Shown here in pieces: positions 27,773 to 33,482 of a DNA stretch of 64,000 nt. The translations under genes were made by a program, and so were the position numbers. This DNA comes from Naegleria gruberi (lineage: Eukaryota): the NCBI GenBank assembly GCA_000004985.1, contig GG738859.1; one strand, written 5' to 3'. Position 1 is the stretch's first letter, and each line of letters begins with the position of its first letter. The notes beneath the pieces were generated by a model. The model was not told the DNA's origin, made no database searches, and was given only the letters and a program-made list of their open reading frames with translations.

Positions 27773-29089
27773 TTACTTTTTCTTTTTAAGTGGAGAGCCA
27801 GATTTTAGAATCTTTTTCTTCTTTGGCTCAATTGATGGCGCTCTAGGTTTGCTTTGTGGTTGTTGTTTGCTTAGGGCAGGTGTTGTGTTTTTAACTAAGG
27901 ATCTCAGTTGGCCTAGTTCCTTTCCATGATGATTGATATCCTTCATGAGATCCATCATCTTTTGCTTGTAGTCTTTGAATTCATTGTTACATTCTTCTTG
28001 GAGTTTTTCAAAATCCTTCAATCTGGTTATGGAATGGGTGTTAGAAGTGTCTGTGTCTTCAGCTCCTGAAATTTCGAGTTGAGAAAGGTCTTCTTTTTTT
28101 CTTCTTACAACAACAGTACTACTGACGTTGTATTCGACCTCATCCTTCTTTTGATCCTTAGTTGGAGGGTGAGATAAATTAGGGGAATGATTTGTTTTTT
28201 GTTTTGATATTTCTACTACAGCCTTTTTGAAACGTCTCTTCTTTCTCTTAATTGTGCTACAGGATGATCCACATTCAGACTCTTCAAGTGAAGAATCAGA
28301 ATCAGAGTCTGTATCATCACTTGAATTGCTTGAATCCTCTATATGTGATTGAGATGTTTCATTCAGCTTGGGTGATGCCATCTTTGGTTCGGCTTTTCTA
28401 AAGAGTGGTTTAATACTATCAGATGTTTCTCTAACCTCTGAATCTCTTGATTTCGTTGAATCTCTTGTTACTCTTGAGCCACCATTGATATTTGGAGAGG
28501 GGTTCATTACATTATTAATGCTCTCTAAATGTTCACATCTTCTTTGGAGCCTTTCATTCTCTTTCTTTTCATTGTCAACTGTTTTCCTGAGCTCGATTAT
28601 CTTTTCTTCAAACATTTTCTCTCTTTTCATTATTTGATCCTTTAGCTTTTCATACTCTTCAGAAAACTTGGATTTTTGTTTTTCGGCTATCAACTGCAAT
28701 TTCTTTGATCGTTTTCTTTCTTCCTCATATTTGATTTTGTACTGATCTAATTGCTCTTCGACTGTTTTTTTAAGATTCAAAAACTTGGCTTCATATTCCT
28801 CAATCCTTTTTTCGCTTTCTAATTTCTGATCCCTTAGTTGACTTTCACTCTTGAGCAACTCTTTTACTCGTTGATTGTATTTTTCCTCTTCCTGCAATAT
28901 GATGTTTTCTTTTTCATTACTTAGATTAACAAGGGTTTGTCGCAGTTCTTGATAGTTTCTTGCCATATCTTTGGATTCACTTTCCAACTCCTTGATTTTT
29001 TCCTCTTTTTCCATGTAGCTTCGTCTTTCCTCTTCAATTTTCTTTGAGAGGGCTTCCAAGGTATCGTGTTGTTGTTGAATTCTGTTCAT
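27773..29089 (-). CDS. Coiled-coil protein (438-aa ORF). Probably the 3' exon of a single gene joined to ORF 29117..30760 by a 39-nt intron.
   Basis: K/E-rich heptad-repeat sequence. Only 27 bp separate its ATG from the upstream ORF's stop, and a frame-preserving intron can be drawn across that gap (see finding). Confidence 0.55.
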   Translation of the reverse strand: MNRIQQQHDTLEALSKKIEEERRSYMEKEEKIKELESESKDMARNYQELRQTLVNLSNEKENIILQEEEKYNQRVKELLKSESQLRDQKLESEKRIEEYEAKFLNLKKTVEEQLDQYKIKYEEERKRSKKLQLIAEKQKSKFSEEYEKLKDQIMKREKMFEEKIIELRKTVDNEKKENERLQRRCEHLESINNVMNPSPNINGGSRVTRDSTKSRDSEVRETSDSIKPLFRKAEPKMASPKLNETSQSHIEDSSNSSDDTDSDSDSSLEESECGSSCSTIKRKKRRFKKAVVEISKQKTNHSPNLSHPPTKDQKKDEVEYNVSSTVVVRRKKEDLSQLEISGAEDTDTSNTHSITRLKDFEKLQEECNNEFKDYKQKMMDLMKDINHHGKELGQLRSLVKNTTPALSKQQPQSKPRAPSIEPKKKKILKSGSPLKKKK

Positions 29090-29116
29090 GTTAGAATTAA
29101 ATTAACATATGACAAC

Positions 29117-30760
29117 TTACTGACTAGTTAATTTTTCATTTTTCTCTTTTAGTTCCTTGGATTTAACCTTATGGTTTTTAACTGTTTCATCAATCTTTTG
29201 TGAAAGCTCTTCATTATATTTCCTCAAATCATTGACTTCTGTTCCTAGCTGCTCAGCATGTTTTTTAATTTCCCTAGAGTGATTTAACAATTCGTCATAT
29301 CTCTTTCTAATATTTACATAAGATTTTTCCTTTTCCTTCCATTCAGTCTCCTTTTCCTTAAGAGTTTTTTGAAGTTGATTTGCTTCGTCTGTTTTGGCTT
29401 GTAATTTTTGTCTTAGTTGCAAAAGCTGCTCGTTTTGCTTCTTTGTTTTTGAACTTAAATCTGCTGACTCATTGCATGATGTTATTATTCTCTCATTCCA
29501 TTCCTTTTCTTTTTGTTTGAACTCTATCCATTTCTCTTCGTATAAACCTCTAAGTGCTTGGAGTTCTAAATCTTTTTCTCGTTCAATAGTTGAGGTTCTT
29601 TCTTCGTGAGCTTCAAGAAGTGCTTCATACTCCACAACTTGATTTGATAGAGATGCTAGTCTTCGTTCATAATCTCTTAACAAAACATCTTTCTCCAGAT
29701 CTCTTTTCTTCTTTTCCACTCGAACTCGATCATCCTCAATTCGTTCTGGTTGTTGGTTGATTGGCCTTTGCTTTTTGGTTTGTGGTTGAGTTTCCTTAGC
29801 CTTAGGTAATTTAGGAGCAATTATTGGAGAAACATCACTAGGTTCAGGGCTTGCAAAAGTAACATTGGGGGTTATTTTTTTTTGAGCTTGGTTTTCAGCT
29901 ACCACTTGTTGGGCAATTTCTGAAACAACGGCCTTTGGAGGAATTTTAGTTTCTGTTGAAGCTTTTACAGAAACAGGTCTTGTTTTCATTGTATTTACAT
30001 TGTCTTCAGTTTCTGTTAACTCAATTTGAGTTGTTTCATCGTCGCTACATTGAGAAATGTCATCAAATGTGAATGGTGTTGCACCCTGTTTTTTTCTTTC
30101 TTCGTTTTCCCTTCTATGTTTCTCCAGTAGTTGATTTACTGATGTTGGTGGTTTAGAAACTACTTGTTTCTTGGGTATGTATTGCTCTTCCTCCTCCTCT
30201 TCCTCAATGTCTGTGTTTTCAATTTGATCATCCTCTGTATCGCAATAAGTTTCTATCACAACTTGTTTGCGATTAGTATTATTTAGTTTTTTGCCTGGTT
30301 TAATTTCTTCAACATCCTCAATTAGAACGCTGATATCACTGTTTTCATCATGAGATGATTGAAGCAGATCATCTTGTATTGAGGAGAGACTCTTCATCTC
30401 TGCTTGCATTTCTCTCAGTGAGGAAAAGATGGCTGATGGTTTGATCAGTTTTTTGTTTCCTTGTTGTTCGTGACAAGAATCTACCATTACTGGAGATTCC
30501 ATGTCTGTATTTTCCTCTTCCAAATATTCATCTTCATCATAATGTTGATTCTCCTCATCATTAATTTCCGTATATTTAAATAATTTTGTTTTTGATGTTC
30601 GTATTGATGATGTATTTTCGATTGAAGGGGTTTTCTTCCTTAGTGATGATACATTTACTTTTTCCTTGTTAATCTGAGAGTGAGTGGTATTGGGCGAAAG
30701 TGTTGTTTGTCTTATTGATGAGCCAAGCACTCGTTTTGTTTGTTGAGAATTTTCATACAT
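29117..30760 (-). CDS. Coiled-coil protein (547-aa ORF). Probably the 5' exon (30760..29121) of the same gene as 27773..29089.
   Basis: ATG at 30760 in an AAAAAAATG context. S/T/E-rich N-terminal half, coiled-coil C-terminal half. Its stop TAA is embedded in CA|GTAAGT, a canonical donor. Confidence 0.55.
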   Translation of the reverse strand: MYENSQQTKRVLGSSIRQTTLSPNTTHSQINKEKVNVSSLRKKTPSIENTSSIRTSKTKLFKYTEINDEENQHYDEDEYLEEENTDMESPVMVDSCHEQQGNKKLIKPSAIFSSLREMQAEMKSLSSIQDDLLQSSHDENSDISVLIEDVEEIKPGKKLNNTNRKQVVIETYCDTEDDQIENTDIEEEEEEEQYIPKKQVVSKPPTSVNQLLEKHRRENEERKKQGATPFTFDDISQCSDDETTQIELTETEDNVNTMKTRPVSVKASTETKIPPKAVVSEIAQQVVAENQAQKKITPNVTFASPEPSDVSPIIAPKLPKAKETQPQTKKQRPINQQPERIEDDRVRVEKKKRDLEKDVLLRDYERRLASLSNQVVEYEALLEAHEERTSTIEREKDLELQALRGLYEEKWIEFKQKEKEWNERIITSCNESADLSSKTKKQNEQLLQLRQKLQAKTDEANQLQKTLKEKETEWKEKEKSYVNIRKRYDELLNHSREIKKHAEQLGTEVNDLRKYNEELSQKIDETVKNHKVKSKELKEKNEKLTSQ

Positions 30761-30811
30761 TTTTTTCTTATTGGCGGGAAATTTTTGGCGCCAATTAACT
30801 ACACATATTTA

Positions 30812-32269
30812 TTATTGAAAATGTGAAGGGTACTTTGCCAAATAGGATTGAAGTGATTCTTGAATTTCATCAGTAAGTGATTCAAGTAGAATTTTTTTCT
30901 GTTCTCCAGATTCCATATTCTTAATTGAAATTTTACCTCCCTTCAATTCATCCTCTCCAATAATAATTGTGAGGAGTGATTTACTTTGTTGGGCTTGTTT
31001 CAATTGTTTTGATAAATTTCCCTTCTCAAAATAATTGATTGTAATGCCTTGTTTACGTAATTGTTGGGATAGAATAATAGCAAATTTAGACATTTCCTGA
31101 TCAATAGCTTCATTTGTGCCTCTGACGACTGAAACGAATACTTTTGGAATGTATTCTGGTTGAGGTTGAGTATTTCCCTTTTCCAGTTCTTCCATAATTA
31201 AGGAAAGTCTTTCAAATCCACTAGCCCAACTAGTTAGATGTTAAATTTTGAAATATTTTGTTAATATCAAAACAGAGTTAACTTACCCAACAGCTGGAAT
31301 TTGTTGATTGGCTCCTAATTGTTGAGATAATGTATCATAACGCCCACCTGCGAGAATGGTTGATTTGGCACCAATAACATTGCTCTTAAATTCAAATGTT
31401 GTATGGGTATAGTAATCAAGACCTCTAATAAGAGATGAGTTAATCTTGTATGGAATTTTCAACCATTTCAATCCTAAAAGTACATTTTCAAATCGTTTTC
31501 TATTTTCCTCACTTTGAAATTGAGCTAATTGGGGCATATCATGTTTTTCAATCAAATTTGCAATAAAATCTTCATCCTGTTTAGAGTCGAGAATTCTCCA
31601 AATTCTTCTTGGATTATTTTCTGCAATGGCAATTTCAACTCTAGCTCTACTGTCCTTTGAAAGATTTTCCTCCTGATCAAATAATTCCTTATTCTTTTTA
31701 ACATATTCTAAGAGAGCATGTTGATAATTTTCACGTTCTTTCAAAGTTCCAATAGAGTTAATTTCCAATTGAAATACATCATTTCTACCATCAAGAACAT
31801 TTGTTAAAAATTGATAAGCCATTTCCAAAGATTCCAAATCACTTTGATAATGATCACTTCCTAAATATTCCACTCCAAATTGATGAAATTGACGATATCT
31901 TCCTTTCTGTGGTCTTTCGTATCTAAACATTGGTCCATAATAGTAAATTCTTTGTTTTGTTGAGAGAGCATTTTCGATAACACTTCTCATAATTGGTGCT
32001 GTTCCTTCAGGTCTCAAACATAACTTATTTCCTTCAATAGCATCACGTGATGAGAGAATAAACATTTCCTTTGATATAATATCAGTGTCGGCTCCGAGAG
32101 TTCTCTCGAATAATTTTCTCTCCTCTACGATTGGAGTTTGTGCAAATTGATAATCGAATGTCTTTGCTGTTTGTTCTCCGACTCTAATAATTTTTGAATA
32201 GCACTTGGTTGAAAATTGTGAAGGAAGGAAATCAGCCATTCCTTTCACACACTTCGTATGATACGACAT
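30812..32269 (-). CDS. Histidyl-tRNA synthetase, bacterial type. Exons 32269..31287 and 31229..30812, 57-nt intron at 31286..31230 (GTAAGT...TCTAACTAG).
   Basis: CVKGMADFLP, PIVEERKLFERTLGADTDIISKEMF, CLRPEGTAPIMRS, GPMFRYERPQKGRYRQFHQFG (HisRS motif 2) and GGRYD are collinear with E. coli HisS. Splicing gives IPAVG|WASGFERLSLIMEEL (E. coli TPAVGFAMGLERLVLLV). The track ORF 30812..31195 is the anticodon-binding-domain exon. There is no WHEP domain or obvious presequence. Confidence 0.85.
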
Positions 32270-32360
32270 TTTTTTTGATTGAATTAATCTTATTAGGCAC
32301 CTTTTTGTTTAATGGTAAATAGAAAGACGAATAATAGATTGAATTAATACTGAATATTAT

Positions 32361-33482
32361 TTATTTGTGAACTTGTTTAAAGTAACCAACTGTTCTCTTC
32401 TTGGCTTCCTTCATATCATAAACAGGCTTATATGTGAATAAACGAGTAGCTTTTGTGGAATTGAATCTTCTATCAGCAACTAACAAGGCATTCTTATCCA
32501 ATTCAAATTGTGGTGGAATAGCAAACTTGATACCACAGAACTTCAAAACAAAGGCAACAATCAACAAAATGTAGCTGATGACATACATAATTTGGACTGG
32601 AACACCAATCTTTGGAGTTGGATAATTGAATTCCTTCAAAATATCAGCCATAAATCCCCAGAACAATTCAGGTTCTTGATTTGTGACAAAGAATGGTTCA
32701 CCACTAACTTCATCTTTATCCAAATGAGTTGATGCTAAAATGAGTGAGTGTGTGACGTTCTTAACATATGTATAATCCATATAATTTTTACCATTTCCGA
32801 CATAGAACTTGGTCTTTCCTGCCTTACCATTATCTAAAACAGTAGGAATAAATAATAAATCTCTTTCACCGAAAATACTTGCTGGTCTAATAGCAACAGT
32901 TCTGATCTTATCCTTATGTTCTTTACCATATTTAAGTGTTAATTTTTCTTGTTCAACTTTGGTGTCAGTATAAACATTAACACCTGATTTGACATATGGT
33001 TTAGTTTCATCACAATTATTGGTATCAGTACCATCAAAAACTACAGATGCAGATGAAACAAGAACGAAATTCTTGGTTTCCTTTCCAGAAGCAGTTTCAA
33101 TTAAACAATCCAACAAATTACGAGTGCCTTCAACATTGACCTTGTAGAGAACTGCAGCTGGTGATTTGAAAGGATCAGGAGTGGCAGTGTGGAAAACAGT
33201 ATCTACATTAAAATCTTGGAAAGCTTCAAGAACTTGCTATATAAATGTTAAATTACCATGTCACACACTGTGGAAAAACTATGAACTTACCTCCTTGTTG
33301 CAAATATCGGTCTTGTAAAATTTAACATCCTTTGTGATGGTTGGTTCTCTGATATCCATAACACCGACATTATATCCCTTGGCCTTCAAGTCTTCAACAA
33401 GATGTTGACCCAAAAATCCTGCTCCTCCAATAACAAGACAATTCTTGACTCTATTACTTCCAACAACGTTAAATCCGCTCAT
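32361..33482 (-). CDS. NSDHL: Sterol-4-alpha-carboxylate 3-dehydrogenase (NSDHL/ERG26-like 3-beta-HSD family). Exons 33482..33291 and 33236..32361, 54-nt intron at 33290..33237.
   Basis: Exon 1 CLVIGGAGFLGQHLVEDLKAKGYNV (Rossmann GxxGxxG). Exon 2 VDTVFHTATP...VLVSSASVVFDG...YTDTK (YxxxK)...AIRPASIFGERD...KFYVGNGKN..DYTYVKNV is collinear with human NSDHL. GTAAGT donor after ...CNKE. Confidence 0.8.

What the first reader, a model, noticed from the sequence alone, without database searches (positions are those of the whole stretch)
30812..32269. Bacterial-type histidyl-tRNA synthetase encoded in the nucleus with a spliceosomal intron and no evident targeting peptide
The protein is collinear with E. 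coli HisS from its first residues (KGMADFLP vs RGMNDYLP; LRPEGTA; GPMFRYERPQKGRYRQFHQ; GGRYD; PAVGxxxGxERL). It lacks the eukaryotic WHEP/N-terminal extension.

The gene nevertheless carries a canonical 57-nt GTAAGT..TCTAACTAG intron (31286..31230) and an A-rich eukaryotic start context. No second, eukaryotic-type HisRS is in this window. The first residues align to the bacterial N-terminus, so a mitochondrial presequence is not apparent. This may be a horizontally acquired or organellar-origin HisRS that is dual-use or cytosolic.
Basis: partly seen in the sequence, partly recalled or inferred. Interest (0 to 1): 0.5.

Follow-up and report, generated by a model that had tools for sequence, protein, structure and literature searches.

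The report
Naegleria's nuclear-encoded mitochondrial histidyl-tRNA synthetase
This is the already annotated Naegleria gruberi gene for a bacterial-type histidyl-tRNA synthetase that published proteomics places in mitochondria; its only unusual feature is that it lacks the usual N-terminal import peptide.

Summary
On the minus strand, 32269..30812, two exons joined by a 57-nt GTAAGT…CTAACTAG intron encode an intact 466-aa bacterial-type HisRS. It matches E. coli HisRS at 1e-70 and human cytosolic HisRS at only 3e-17.

The window is Naegleria gruberi, and the gene is NAEGRDRAFT_32290 / XP_002679086.1.

It is not a recent transfer:
- Its codon usage is host-like.
- The intron sits at the same codon in N. 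lovaniensis.
- Profile scoring places it with bacterial-type HisRS from many other eukaryotes, most of which carry 23-104-residue presequence-like N-termini.

Naegleria and Willaertia have only 5-9 residues before the first conserved motif, the same as bacteria. An upstream exon is excluded: the neighbouring gene ends 91 nt upstream, and in-frame stops precede the ATG.

A published organelle-fractionation proteome (Horváthová 2021) lists this protein among 946 putative mitochondrial proteins of N. gruberi. The three predictors used in that study call it non-mitochondrial.

Best reading: it is the mitochondrial HisRS, imported without a cleavable presequence. A dual or cytosolic role is not supported and not excluded, because I could not search the rest of the genome for a eukaryote-type HisRS. 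The finding is ordinary and of low interest.

The parts
30812..32269 (-). Whole HisRS gene from start codon to stop codon. This is Naegleria gruberi NAEGRDRAFT_32290 / XP_002679086.1 / UniProt D2VA04.
   Evidence: The spliced translation is 100% identical to P0001 over 98% of its length.
32267..32269 (-). Preferred start codon (M1, giving MSYHTKCVKGMADFLP). The RefSeq model starts 10 codons downstream, at M11 (32239..32237).
   Evidence: It is the first ATG of the ORF. Orthologues and bacteria all keep the [KR]G that would be lost with an M11 start. An in-frame stop lies 13 codons upstream.
31287..32269 (-). Exon 1 (aa 1-327 plus two bases of Gly328). It holds most of the class II catalytic domain, including the N-terminal KGMADFLP motif, LRPEGTA, motif 2 (31874..31936), HisA RGLDYY (31409..31426) and HisB GGRYD (31334..31348).
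31230..31286 (-). Spliceosomal intron, 57 nt, phase 2, GTAAGT…TCTAACTAG, 21% GC. It interrupts the Gly328 codon inside motif 3 (PAVG|WASGFERL).
   Evidence: Removing it restores the frame, and read-through hits stops. The pattern is non-random in the window. N. lovaniensis has a 97-nt GTAAGT…AG intron at the same codon and phase; Willaertia has none.
30815..31229 (-). Exon 2 (aa 328-466). It holds the end of motif 3 and the HGTP anticodon-binding domain (aa 358-452, 30857..31141).
30812..30814 (-). TAA stop codon. The next minus-strand gene starts 51 nt downstream, at 30760.
32270..32360 (-). The 91-nt 5' intergenic spacer between the stop of the upstream 3beta-HSD-family gene (32361) and the HisRS ATG. 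It is too short to hold a presequence exon plus an intron.
31580..31642 (-). Lineage-specific expansion in the insertion domain (RVEIAIAENNPRRIWRILDSK, aa 210-230). Bacteria have …NP-LRILDSK here, and most other eukaryotic members have …RGS-VLRILDSK.
   Evidence: Alignment.

Best explanation
**What it is.** This is the nuclear gene for the mitochondrial histidyl-tRNA synthetase of Naegleria gruberi. It encodes a catalytically intact class IIa, bacterial-type HisRS.

**Inferred mechanism.**
- The enzyme is made in the cytosol and imported into mitochondria.
- There it charges mitochondrial tRNA-His for organellar translation. It would recognise that tRNA in the bacterial manner, since its motif-2 loop ERPQKGRYRQFHQ is identical to that of E. 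coli.

**Lineage.** It belongs to an old, widely distributed eukaryotic lineage of bacterial-type HisRS whose nearest bacterial relatives by score are mostly alphaproteobacterial. It has long been resident in the nucleus.

**The one unusual feature.** Most members of that lineage carry a basic N-terminal extension. The Naegleria/Willaertia enzymes have none. Import must therefore rely on a non-cleaved or internal signal, possibly the mildly basic, amphipathic first ~40 residues of the mature domain.

**What is shown and what is inferred.**
- Shown: gene structure, enzyme type, absence of a presequence, co-fractionation with mitochondria (published), and affinity to the eukaryotic clade.
- Inferred: the mitochondrial tRNA-His substrate, the import signal, and the existence of a separate cytosolic HisRS.
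For: **Enzyme identity and integrity.**
- TIGR00442 scores 371.7 bits, above its cut-off. The HisZ model scores 127.9 bits against a cut-off of 271.65.
- Pfam finds the catalytic and anticodon-binding domains.
- The protein is collinear with E. coli HisRS, with motifs 2 and 3, HisA and HisB intact.

**Nuclear and long resident.**
- The intron is conserved in position and phase in N. lovaniensis.
- CDS GC is 33.2%, against 34.4±2.3% for other long ORFs in the window. Codon-usage correlation with those ORFs is r = 0.905, against a mean of 0.845 for the other ORFs.
- The gene is flanked by eukaryotic genes.

**Mitochondrial location (published proteomics).**
- XP_002679086.1 is in Sheet 1 (mitochondrial) of Supplementary Data 2 of Horváthová et al. 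2021 (PMC8134430).
- It has 16 unique peptides and 34.9% coverage. Log2 intensity is NaN / 23.4 / 25.2 across fractions of increasing mitochondrial enrichment, the same trend as the other mitochondrial aaRS listed.

**Clade membership.**
- Homologues with 23-104-residue, KR-rich, acid-poor N-termini occur in Pharyngomonas, Salpingoeca, Diphylleia, Tieghemostelium and others.
- In neighbour-joining bootstraps, the immediate sister group of Naegleria+Willaertia was purely eukaryotic in 274 of 300 replicates.
- Heterolobosean sequences score +27 to +40 bits better on the eukaryote-clade HMM than on the bacterial HMM. Leave-one-out controls separated perfectly: 23/23 eukaryotes positive, 38/38 bacteria negative.

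**Presequence-less state is conserved.**
- There are 5-9 residues before the first motif in N. gruberi, N. lovaniensis, N. fowleri, a Naegleria-like metagenome sequence and Willaertia.
- In-frame stops lie 8-14 codons upstream of the ATG in the three genomes examined.

**Not unique in this organism.** ArgRS, ThrRS, SerRS and PheRS in the same mitochondrial proteome also have poor or absent mitochondrial predictions.
Against: - There is no N-terminal presequence. PSORT II, MultiLoc2 and TargetP all favour a non-mitochondrial location (N35, C90, O85). These were run on the 456-aa model that starts at M11.
- Assignment by gradient co-fractionation has false positives; the same list contains unlikely entries such as a HECT E3 ligase.
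- I could not tell whether HisRS was itself one of the 376 marker proteins used to define the mitochondrial cluster.
- Its intensity is 4-16 times lower than several other mitochondrial aaRS, and it was not detected in the lightest fraction.
- The fractionation cannot exclude an additional cytosolic pool.
- I could not confirm that Naegleria mtDNA encodes trnH, nor that a eukaryote-type HisRS exists elsewhere in the genome.
- Deep nodes of the trees are unresolved. Strict eukaryote monophyly appeared in 3 of 300 replicates, and alphaproteobacterial ancestry rests on hit ranking only.
- The N-terminal charge shift is weak: +2 to +4, against a bacterial mean of +0.5 with sd 1.8.
Confidence: 0.75

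Rival explanations
1. Dual-localised or sole HisRS. Because it has no cleavable presequence, part or most of the protein stays in the cytosol and also charges cytosolic tRNA-His. In the extreme version it has replaced the eukaryote-type enzyme in Naegleria.
For: - No presequence in any Naegleria or Willaertia orthologue.
- All three predictors used in the published study favour a non-mitochondrial location.
- The published fractionation analysed only organelle-enriched fractions, so it is blind to a cytosolic pool.
- No eukaryote-type HisRS is in this window, and I could not search the rest of the genome.
- No paper in the library mentions HisRS together with Naegleria.
Against: - The motif-2 loop is identical to that of E. 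coli. From established knowledge (Hawko & Francklyn 2001; Connolly et al. 2004), this loop covaries with discriminator base C73, whereas eukaryotic cytosolic tRNA-His normally has A73.
- From general knowledge, other eukaryotes with this enzyme type, such as dictyostelids and Tetrahymena, also keep a eukaryote-type cytosolic HisRS.
- The gradient profile parallels that of bona fide mitochondrial aaRS.
- A 64-kb window says nothing about a 41-Mb genome.
Confidence: 0.12
2. Independent, relatively recent lateral transfer of a bacterial hisS into the Naegleria/Willaertia ancestor. It would have replaced the ancestral presequence-bearing mitochondrial enzyme, or added a new cytosolic one, and that would explain the bacterial-length N-terminus.
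For: - The N-terminus has exactly bacterial length.
- Naegleria keeps the bacterial 'NP' in the …NP…RILDSK region, where most eukaryotic members have RGS/GN.
- Pharyngomonas, the basal heterolobosean, has a 58-residue extension and is not the direct sister of Naegleria in the neighbour-joining trees.
- Identity to the best bacteria (about 40-43%) equals identity to the best eukaryotes.
Against: - The profile test puts all five heterolobosean sequences on the eukaryotic side by 27-40 bits, with perfectly separated controls.
- The sister group is purely eukaryotic in 91% of bootstrap replicates.
- Composition and codon usage are fully host-like.
- The intron is shared by two Naegleria species.
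- Other clade members (Diaphanoeca, Didymoeca, P0124, P0030) also have short N-termini, so presequence loss or absence recurs within the clade.
- Tetrahymena also keeps 'NNP'.
Confidence: 0.1
3. Artefact: bacterial contamination of the assembly, or a non-catalytic HisZ-like paralogue.
For: Bacterial-type sequence with a bacterial-length N-terminus.
Against: - It has a spliceosomal intron, eukaryotic neighbours 51 and 91 nt away, 33% GC and host codon usage.
- Orthologues are present in three other heterolobosean genomes.
- Peptides were detected in N. gruberi.
- The HisZ models score far below their cut-offs, and the anticodon-binding domain is present.
Confidence: 0.01

Closest known systems
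Bacterial HisS (E. coli HisRS, PDB 1KMM/1KMN; NCBIfam TIGR00442)
   Same: - Collinear over its whole length.
- Same domain order: class II catalytic core with insertion domain, then the HGTP anticodon-binding domain.
- Identical motif-2 loop. HisA, HisB and motif 3 are conserved.
- Same N-terminal length.
   Different: - Encoded in a eukaryotic nucleus, with an intron.
- About 40 extra residues, from an expanded insertion domain and a C-terminal tail.
- About 40% identity at best to any bacterium.
Bacterial-type (presumed mitochondrial) HisRS of other eukaryotes, e.g. Tieghemostelium lacteum KYR00270.1, Tetrahymena thermophila XP_001014072.3, and Pharyngomonas kirbyi, Diphylleia rotans and Salpingoeca urceolata (EukProt)
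   Same: Same enzyme type. The heterolobosean sequences score 27-40 bits better on a profile of these proteins than on a bacterial profile, and these proteins form their sister group in most bootstrap replicates.
   Different: - Most of them carry 23-104-residue basic N-terminal extensions typical of presequences. Naegleria and Willaertia have none.
- Naegleria has its own insertion before RILDSK.
Eukaryotic cytosolic HisRS (human HARS1, PDB 4PHC; yeast HTS1)
   Same: Same class IIa family and the same reaction.
   Different: - Only a distant sequence match: 3e-17 to human HARS, against 1e-70 to E. coli HisRS, and 25% identity by tblastn.
- No WHEP domain, and a different motif-2 loop.
- Yeast HTS1 makes its mitochondrial and cytosolic forms from two in-frame AUGs. 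Here the second in-frame Met (M11) is a conserved residue of the KGMxD motif, not evidence of such a mechanism.
HisZ, the HisRS-like regulatory subunit of ATP phosphoribosyltransferase
   Same: Shares the HisRS-like catalytic-domain fold.
   Different: HisZ lacks the anticodon-binding domain. Here that domain is present, and the HisZ models score far below their cut-offs (127.9 against 271.65 bits).

Membership tests
Bacterial-type class IIa histidyl-tRNA synthetase (TIGR00442 hisS) | Whole-protein score above the curated equivalog cut-off | tested here: met
   371.7 bits against a cut-off of 286.75, covering profile positions 2-404 of 406.
Bacterial-type class IIa histidyl-tRNA synthetase (TIGR00442 hisS) | Class II motifs 2 and 3 plus the HisRS-specific HisA (RGLDYY) and HisB (GGRYD) motifs | tested here: met
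   All are present and aligned to their E. coli counterparts.
Bacterial-type class IIa histidyl-tRNA synthetase (TIGR00442 hisS) | C-terminal HGTP anticodon-binding domain | tested here: met
   PF03129 at aa 358-452, E = 4.3e-13.
Bacterial-type class IIa histidyl-tRNA synthetase (TIGR00442 hisS) | Histidylation activity on tRNA-His | not testable with these tools
   Needs an aminoacylation assay.
Eukaryotic cytosolic HisRS clade (HARS/HTS1 type) | Closer in sequence to eukaryotic cytosolic HisRS than to bacterial HisRS | tested here: not met
   Human HARS at 3e-17 (65 bits), against E. coli HisRS at 1e-70 (242 bits). tblastn with human HARS gives 25% identity.
Eukaryotic cytosolic HisRS clade (HARS/HTS1 type) | N-terminal WHEP domain or extension (metazoan/fungal forms) | tested here: not met
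   Only 8 residues precede the first conserved motif, and Pfam reports no WHEP hit.
Nuclear-encoded mitochondrial aminoacyl-tRNA synthetase | Encoded in the nuclear genome | tested here: met
   Spliceosomal intron, eukaryotic neighbours and host codon usage.
Nuclear-encoded mitochondrial aminoacyl-tRNA synthetase | Protein resides in mitochondria | tested here: met
   This rests on published data read here, not on my own experiment. The protein is in the N. gruberi putative mitochondrial proteome, with 16 peptides and enrichment toward the densest fraction (PMC8134430, Supplementary Data 2). It is co-fractionation evidence only.
Nuclear-encoded mitochondrial aminoacyl-tRNA synthetase | Cleavable N-terminal presequence | tested here: not met
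   The N-terminus has bacterial length in all five heterolobosean orthologues. The published predictors give TargetP mito 18 / other 85, MultiLoc2 C90 and PSORT II N35. This feature is typical of the family but not obligatory.
Nuclear-encoded mitochondrial aminoacyl-tRNA synthetase | A cognate organelle-encoded (or imported) tRNA-His to charge | not tested
   Naegleria mtDNA is reported to encode 20 tRNAs (PMC4202320) and to lack trnA, trnC and trnG relative to Pharyngomonas (PMC7900873). I could not read the mtDNA to confirm trnH or its -1 and 73 nucleotides.
HisZ (ATP-PRT regulatory subunit) | Score above the HisZ cut-off, and no anticodon-binding domain | tested here: not met
   TIGR00443 scores 127.9 bits against a cut-off of 271.65, and the anticodon-binding domain is present.

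The most novel reading that the evidence does not exclude
In the Naegleria/Willaertia lineage the ancestral mitochondrial HisRS lost its presequence, which the basal heterolobosean Pharyngomonas still has. The enzyme would now be either imported by an unconventional, uncleaved or internal signal, or shared between cytosol and mitochondrion. In the extreme version it is the only HisRS of the cell, a bacterial-type enzyme that has taken over cytosolic histidylation.
Probability: 0.12. Interest if true: 0.5.

Novelty: already known. Interest (0 to 1): 0.2.

Why it matters
It matters little beyond annotation.
- **Gene model.** The analysis corrects the RefSeq start codon (M1 rather than M11).
- **Evolution.** Naegleria keeps a bacterial-type mitochondrial HisRS of the kind found in many protists, with its nearest bacterial relatives among alphaproteobacteria. 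Animals and fungi, from general knowledge, use paralogues or isoforms of the cytosolic enzyme instead.
- **Import.** Together with ArgRS in the same proteome, it is an example of a matrix-type enzyme that reaches Naegleria mitochondria without a recognisable presequence. This is useful for anyone training targeting predictors on, or studying import in, Discoba.
- **Drug targeting.** Because N. fowleri has the orthologue (66% identity) and the enzyme is far from human HARS, it is in principle a selective drug-target candidate. That is speculative.
- **If the sole-HisRS reading were true.** It would be a clear case of a bacterial-type synthetase replacing the cytosolic one.

Tried and rejected
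**Searching for a eukaryote-type HisRS elsewhere in Naegleria.**
- No tool searches that genome.
- The protein search lists only the best 120 hits, so a human HARS query would return only metazoans. I judged a 13-CPU-hour search with under 5% chance of success not justified.
- Literature searches for Naegleria with histidyl-tRNA synthetase, HisRS, or aaRS found nothing relevant.
- The N. gruberi genome paper is not held.
- The N. fowleri supplements contain no HisRS row in the stored text.

**Named bacterial relatives.** The scan of GTDB genomes returned only 9 loci, because single-protein patterns were too specific. It was of little use beyond providing outgroups.

**Diagnostic-column test (eukaryotic versus bacterial consensus residues).** No column passed the thresholds. 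I replaced it with the two-profile likelihood test.

**Indel signature before RILDSK.** It is ambiguous for Naegleria, which keeps 'NP' as bacteria and Tetrahymena do, so I did not use it as evidence.

**Hidden N-terminal signal.** N-terminal charge and amphipathicity show only a weak shift.

**Mitochondrial trnH in Naegleria.** It is not stated in the papers I could read, and Jackman et al. 2012 is not held.

**Failed call.** One mis-specified representative-search call failed and was not counted.
Full report
**1. What is in the sequence.**
On the minus strand an ORF starts at ATG 32269 (context CAAAAAAAATG) and runs to 31287. It is interrupted by a 57-nt GTAAGT…TCTAACTAG segment (31286..31230) and resumes at 31229, ending at a TAA stop at 30814..30812. 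Removing the 57 nt gives a 1401-nt frame of 466 codons. Reading through meets two stop codons. The GTAAGT-N20-50-CTAAC-N0-8-AG architecture occurs twice in the window, against 0.12 expected from shuffles.

**2. What the protein is.**
- Pfam finds tRNA-synt_His (aa 10-335) and the HGTP anticodon-binding domain (aa 358-452).
- NCBIfam's hisS equivalog TIGR00442 scores 371.7 bits against a cut-off of 286.75. The HisZ models fall far below their cut-offs.
- Against solved structures, E. coli HisRS scores 1e-70 and aligns collinearly (residues 4-448 against 4-417). Motif 2 is GPMFRYERPQKGRYRQFHQ, HisA is RGLDYY, HisB is GGRYD and motif 3 is PAVGWASGFERL.
- Human cytosolic HisRS scores only 3e-17.

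So this is an intact bacterial-type HisRS. The intron splits the Gly328 codon inside motif 3.

**3. Whose gene it is.**
The spliced protein is 100% identical to Naegleria gruberi XP_002679086.1 / EFC46342.1 / NAEGRDRAFT_32290 / UniProt D2VA04. Orthologues exist in four other sources:
- N. lovaniensis, 66% identity
- N. fowleri, 66%
- a Naegleria-like metagenome contig, 62%
- Willaertia magna, 53%

The RefSeq model starts at M11 (MADFLP…). The window's first ATG adds MSYHTKCVKG. All orthologues and bacterial homologues keep the [KR]G just before that Met, so 32269 is the better start.

**4. Is there a hidden targeting peptide?** No.
- The upstream gene on the same strand, a two-exon 3beta-HSD/epimerase-family gene, stops at 32361. 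That leaves 91 nt before the ATG.
- In-frame stops lie 13, 14 and 8 codons upstream of the ATG in N. gruberi, N. lovaniensis and Willaertia respectively.
- The number of residues before the first conserved [KR]G.xD motif is 8, 5, 5, 9 and 7 in the five heterolobosean proteins. The median for 238 homologues, mostly bacterial, is 7.

**5. Recent transfer or old resident?**
- The CDS has 33.2% GC, against 34.4±2.3% for 25 other long ORFs in the window. Its codon-usage correlation with them is 0.905, against a mean of 0.845 for those ORFs.
- N. lovaniensis has a 97-nt GTAAGT…AG intron at exactly the same codon and phase. Willaertia has none.
- The best non-heterolobosean hits are about 40% identical. 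The named ones are mostly alphaproteobacteria: Terasakiella, a Rickettsiales bacterium, Paracaedibacter and alphaproteobacterial MAGs.
- An exhaustive representative search also found many homologues with long N-terminal extensions. Cluster look-ups named them:
  - Pharyngomonas kirbyi (the basal heterolobosean), Salpingoeca urceolata, Diphylleia rotans
  - Tieghemostelium lacteum and a dictyostelid-like transcript
  - Tetrahymena species, Aplanochytrium, Didymoeca and Diaphanoeca
- Their extensions, where present, are 23-104 residues long, rich in K/R and almost free of D/E, as presequences are.

My neighbour-joining trees gave the following:
- Naegleria+Willaertia is supported at 100%.
- Its immediate sister group is purely eukaryotic in 274 of 300 bootstrap replicates.
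- Deeper nodes are unresolved.

As a test less dependent on branch lengths, I built one profile from the 23 non-heterolobosean eukaryotic sequences and one from 38 bacterial sequences. The five heterolobosean proteins score 27-40 bits better on the eukaryotic profile. In leave-one-out controls all 23 eukaryotes were positive (+8 to +56) and all 38 bacteria negative (-11 to -90).

I conclude that the gene belongs to an old eukaryotic lineage of bacterial-type HisRS. An alphaproteobacterial, and hence mitochondrial, ancestry is plausible from hit ranking but is not demonstrated by my trees.

**6. Where the protein is.**
Horváthová et al. 2021 (Nat Commun; PMC8134430) fractionated N. gruberi organelles on OptiPrep gradients and quantified 4198 proteins. 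They defined 946 putative mitochondrial proteins by co-clustering with 376 marker proteins. Supplementary Data 2, Sheet 1 (mitochondrial), lists XP_002679086.1 as follows:
[quoted passage not shown] - 16 unique peptides and 34.9% coverage.
- Median log2 intensities of NaN / 23.4 / 25.2 across the three fractions of increasing mitochondrial enrichment.
- In the same row, PSORT II gives mitochondria 17 (best N35), MultiLoc2 gives C90, and TargetP gives mitochondria 18 (best O85).

So the protein is expressed and co-fractionates with mitochondria although no predictor sees a signal.

It is not alone. A cyanobacterial-like ArgRS in the same list has no mitochondrial prediction at all. ThrRS, SerRS and PheRS have weak ones.

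**7. Mechanism.**
- Shown: an intact bacterial-type HisRS, nuclear-encoded, expressed and enriched with mitochondria.
- Inferred: it charges mitochondrial tRNA-His. Its motif-2 loop is identical to that of E. coli. From established work on E. coli HisRS (Hawko & Francklyn 2001; Connolly et al. 2004), that loop reads the G-1:C73 end of tRNA-His. This is the bacterial configuration, and jakobid mitochondria retain at least the encoded G-1 (PMC3590771).
- Naegleria mtDNA encodes 20 tRNAs (PMC4202320). I could not verify that trnH is among them.
- Import must use an uncleaved or internal signal. The first ~40 residues carry net +2 to +4, against a bacterial mean of +0.5 (sd 1.8), and are slightly more amphipathic. 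This is a weak hint only.
- Pharyngomonas has a 58-residue extension, which suggests the extension was lost, or never gained, on the branch to Naegleria and Willaertia. Several other clade members also have short N-termini.

**8. What remains open.**
- The fractionation did not sample the cytosol.
- I could not search the rest of the Naegleria genome for a eukaryote-type HisRS. There is none in this window, and no paper in the library addresses the question.
- On general grounds, other eukaryotes with this enzyme also keep a cytosolic HisRS, and the tRNA-reading loop is bacterial-type. I give the dual or sole reading about 12%.

**9. Verdict.**
The gene is annotated, and its mitochondrial assignment is already in a public dataset. 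It belongs to a known kind, a nuclear-encoded bacterial-type mitochondrial aaRS. The absence of a presequence, conserved across Naegleria and Willaertia, is a small, real curiosity shared with other aaRS of the same organism. Interest is low.

Noticed in passing
window 30771..30794 (minus strand), in the 51-nt spacer between the HisRS stop and the next gene's ATG at 30760: The sequence TTGGCGCCAAAAATTTCCCGCCAA contains two inverted E2F-like sites (TTTSSCGC). They sit just upstream of a 547-aa coiled-coil ORF (29117..30760) that has no Pfam match. This may be a cell-cycle-regulated promoter.
   Followed up: no
window 29082..29120 (minus strand): A second GTAAGT…CTAAC…AG intron-like element (39 nt) overlaps the end of the 547-aa ORF. 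That gene probably continues into a further exon.
   Followed up: no
window 32237..32269 (minus strand): The RefSeq model XP_002679086.1 starts at the second in-frame ATG (M11). Conservation of the preceding [KR]G in orthologues and bacteria indicates that the upstream ATG at 32269 is the true start, so the public model is probably 10 residues short.
   Followed up: yes
window 5126, 17598, 25243, 39802, 42579: Five nuclear tRNA genes lie in the window (Phe-GAA, Asn-GTT twice, Thr-AGT, Glu-TTC). None is tRNA-His.
   Followed up: partly
window 32361..33482 (minus strand): The upstream neighbour is a two-exon gene of the 3beta-hydroxysteroid dehydrogenase / NAD-epimerase family, starting MSGFNVVGSNRVKNCLVIGGAGFLG. 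It ends only 91 nt before the HisRS ATG. Synteny is not conserved: N. lovaniensis and Willaertia have different neighbours (L010, L011).
   Followed up: partly
PMC8134430, Supplementary Data 2 (N. gruberi mitochondrial proteome): A cyanobacterial-like ArgRS in the mitochondrial list has no mitochondrial prediction from any of the three predictors. ThrRS, SerRS and PheRS have weak predictions. Presequence-less mitochondrial aaRS may be a general feature of Naegleria.
   Followed up: partly
P0150 (XP_049851291.1, Schistocerca gregaria record): A bacterial-type HisRS with a 33-residue presequence-like N-terminus is annotated in a locust genome record. This is unexpected for an insect. It could be a contaminant or symbiont eukaryote, or a real gene.
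   Followed up: no
P0131 (Pharyngomonas kirbyi) compared with P0001-P0005: The basal heterolobosean has a 58-residue basic N-terminal extension on its bacterial-type HisRS, while Naegleria and Willaertia have none. Pharyngomonas is also not the direct sister of Naegleria in the neighbour-joining trees.
   Followed up: partly
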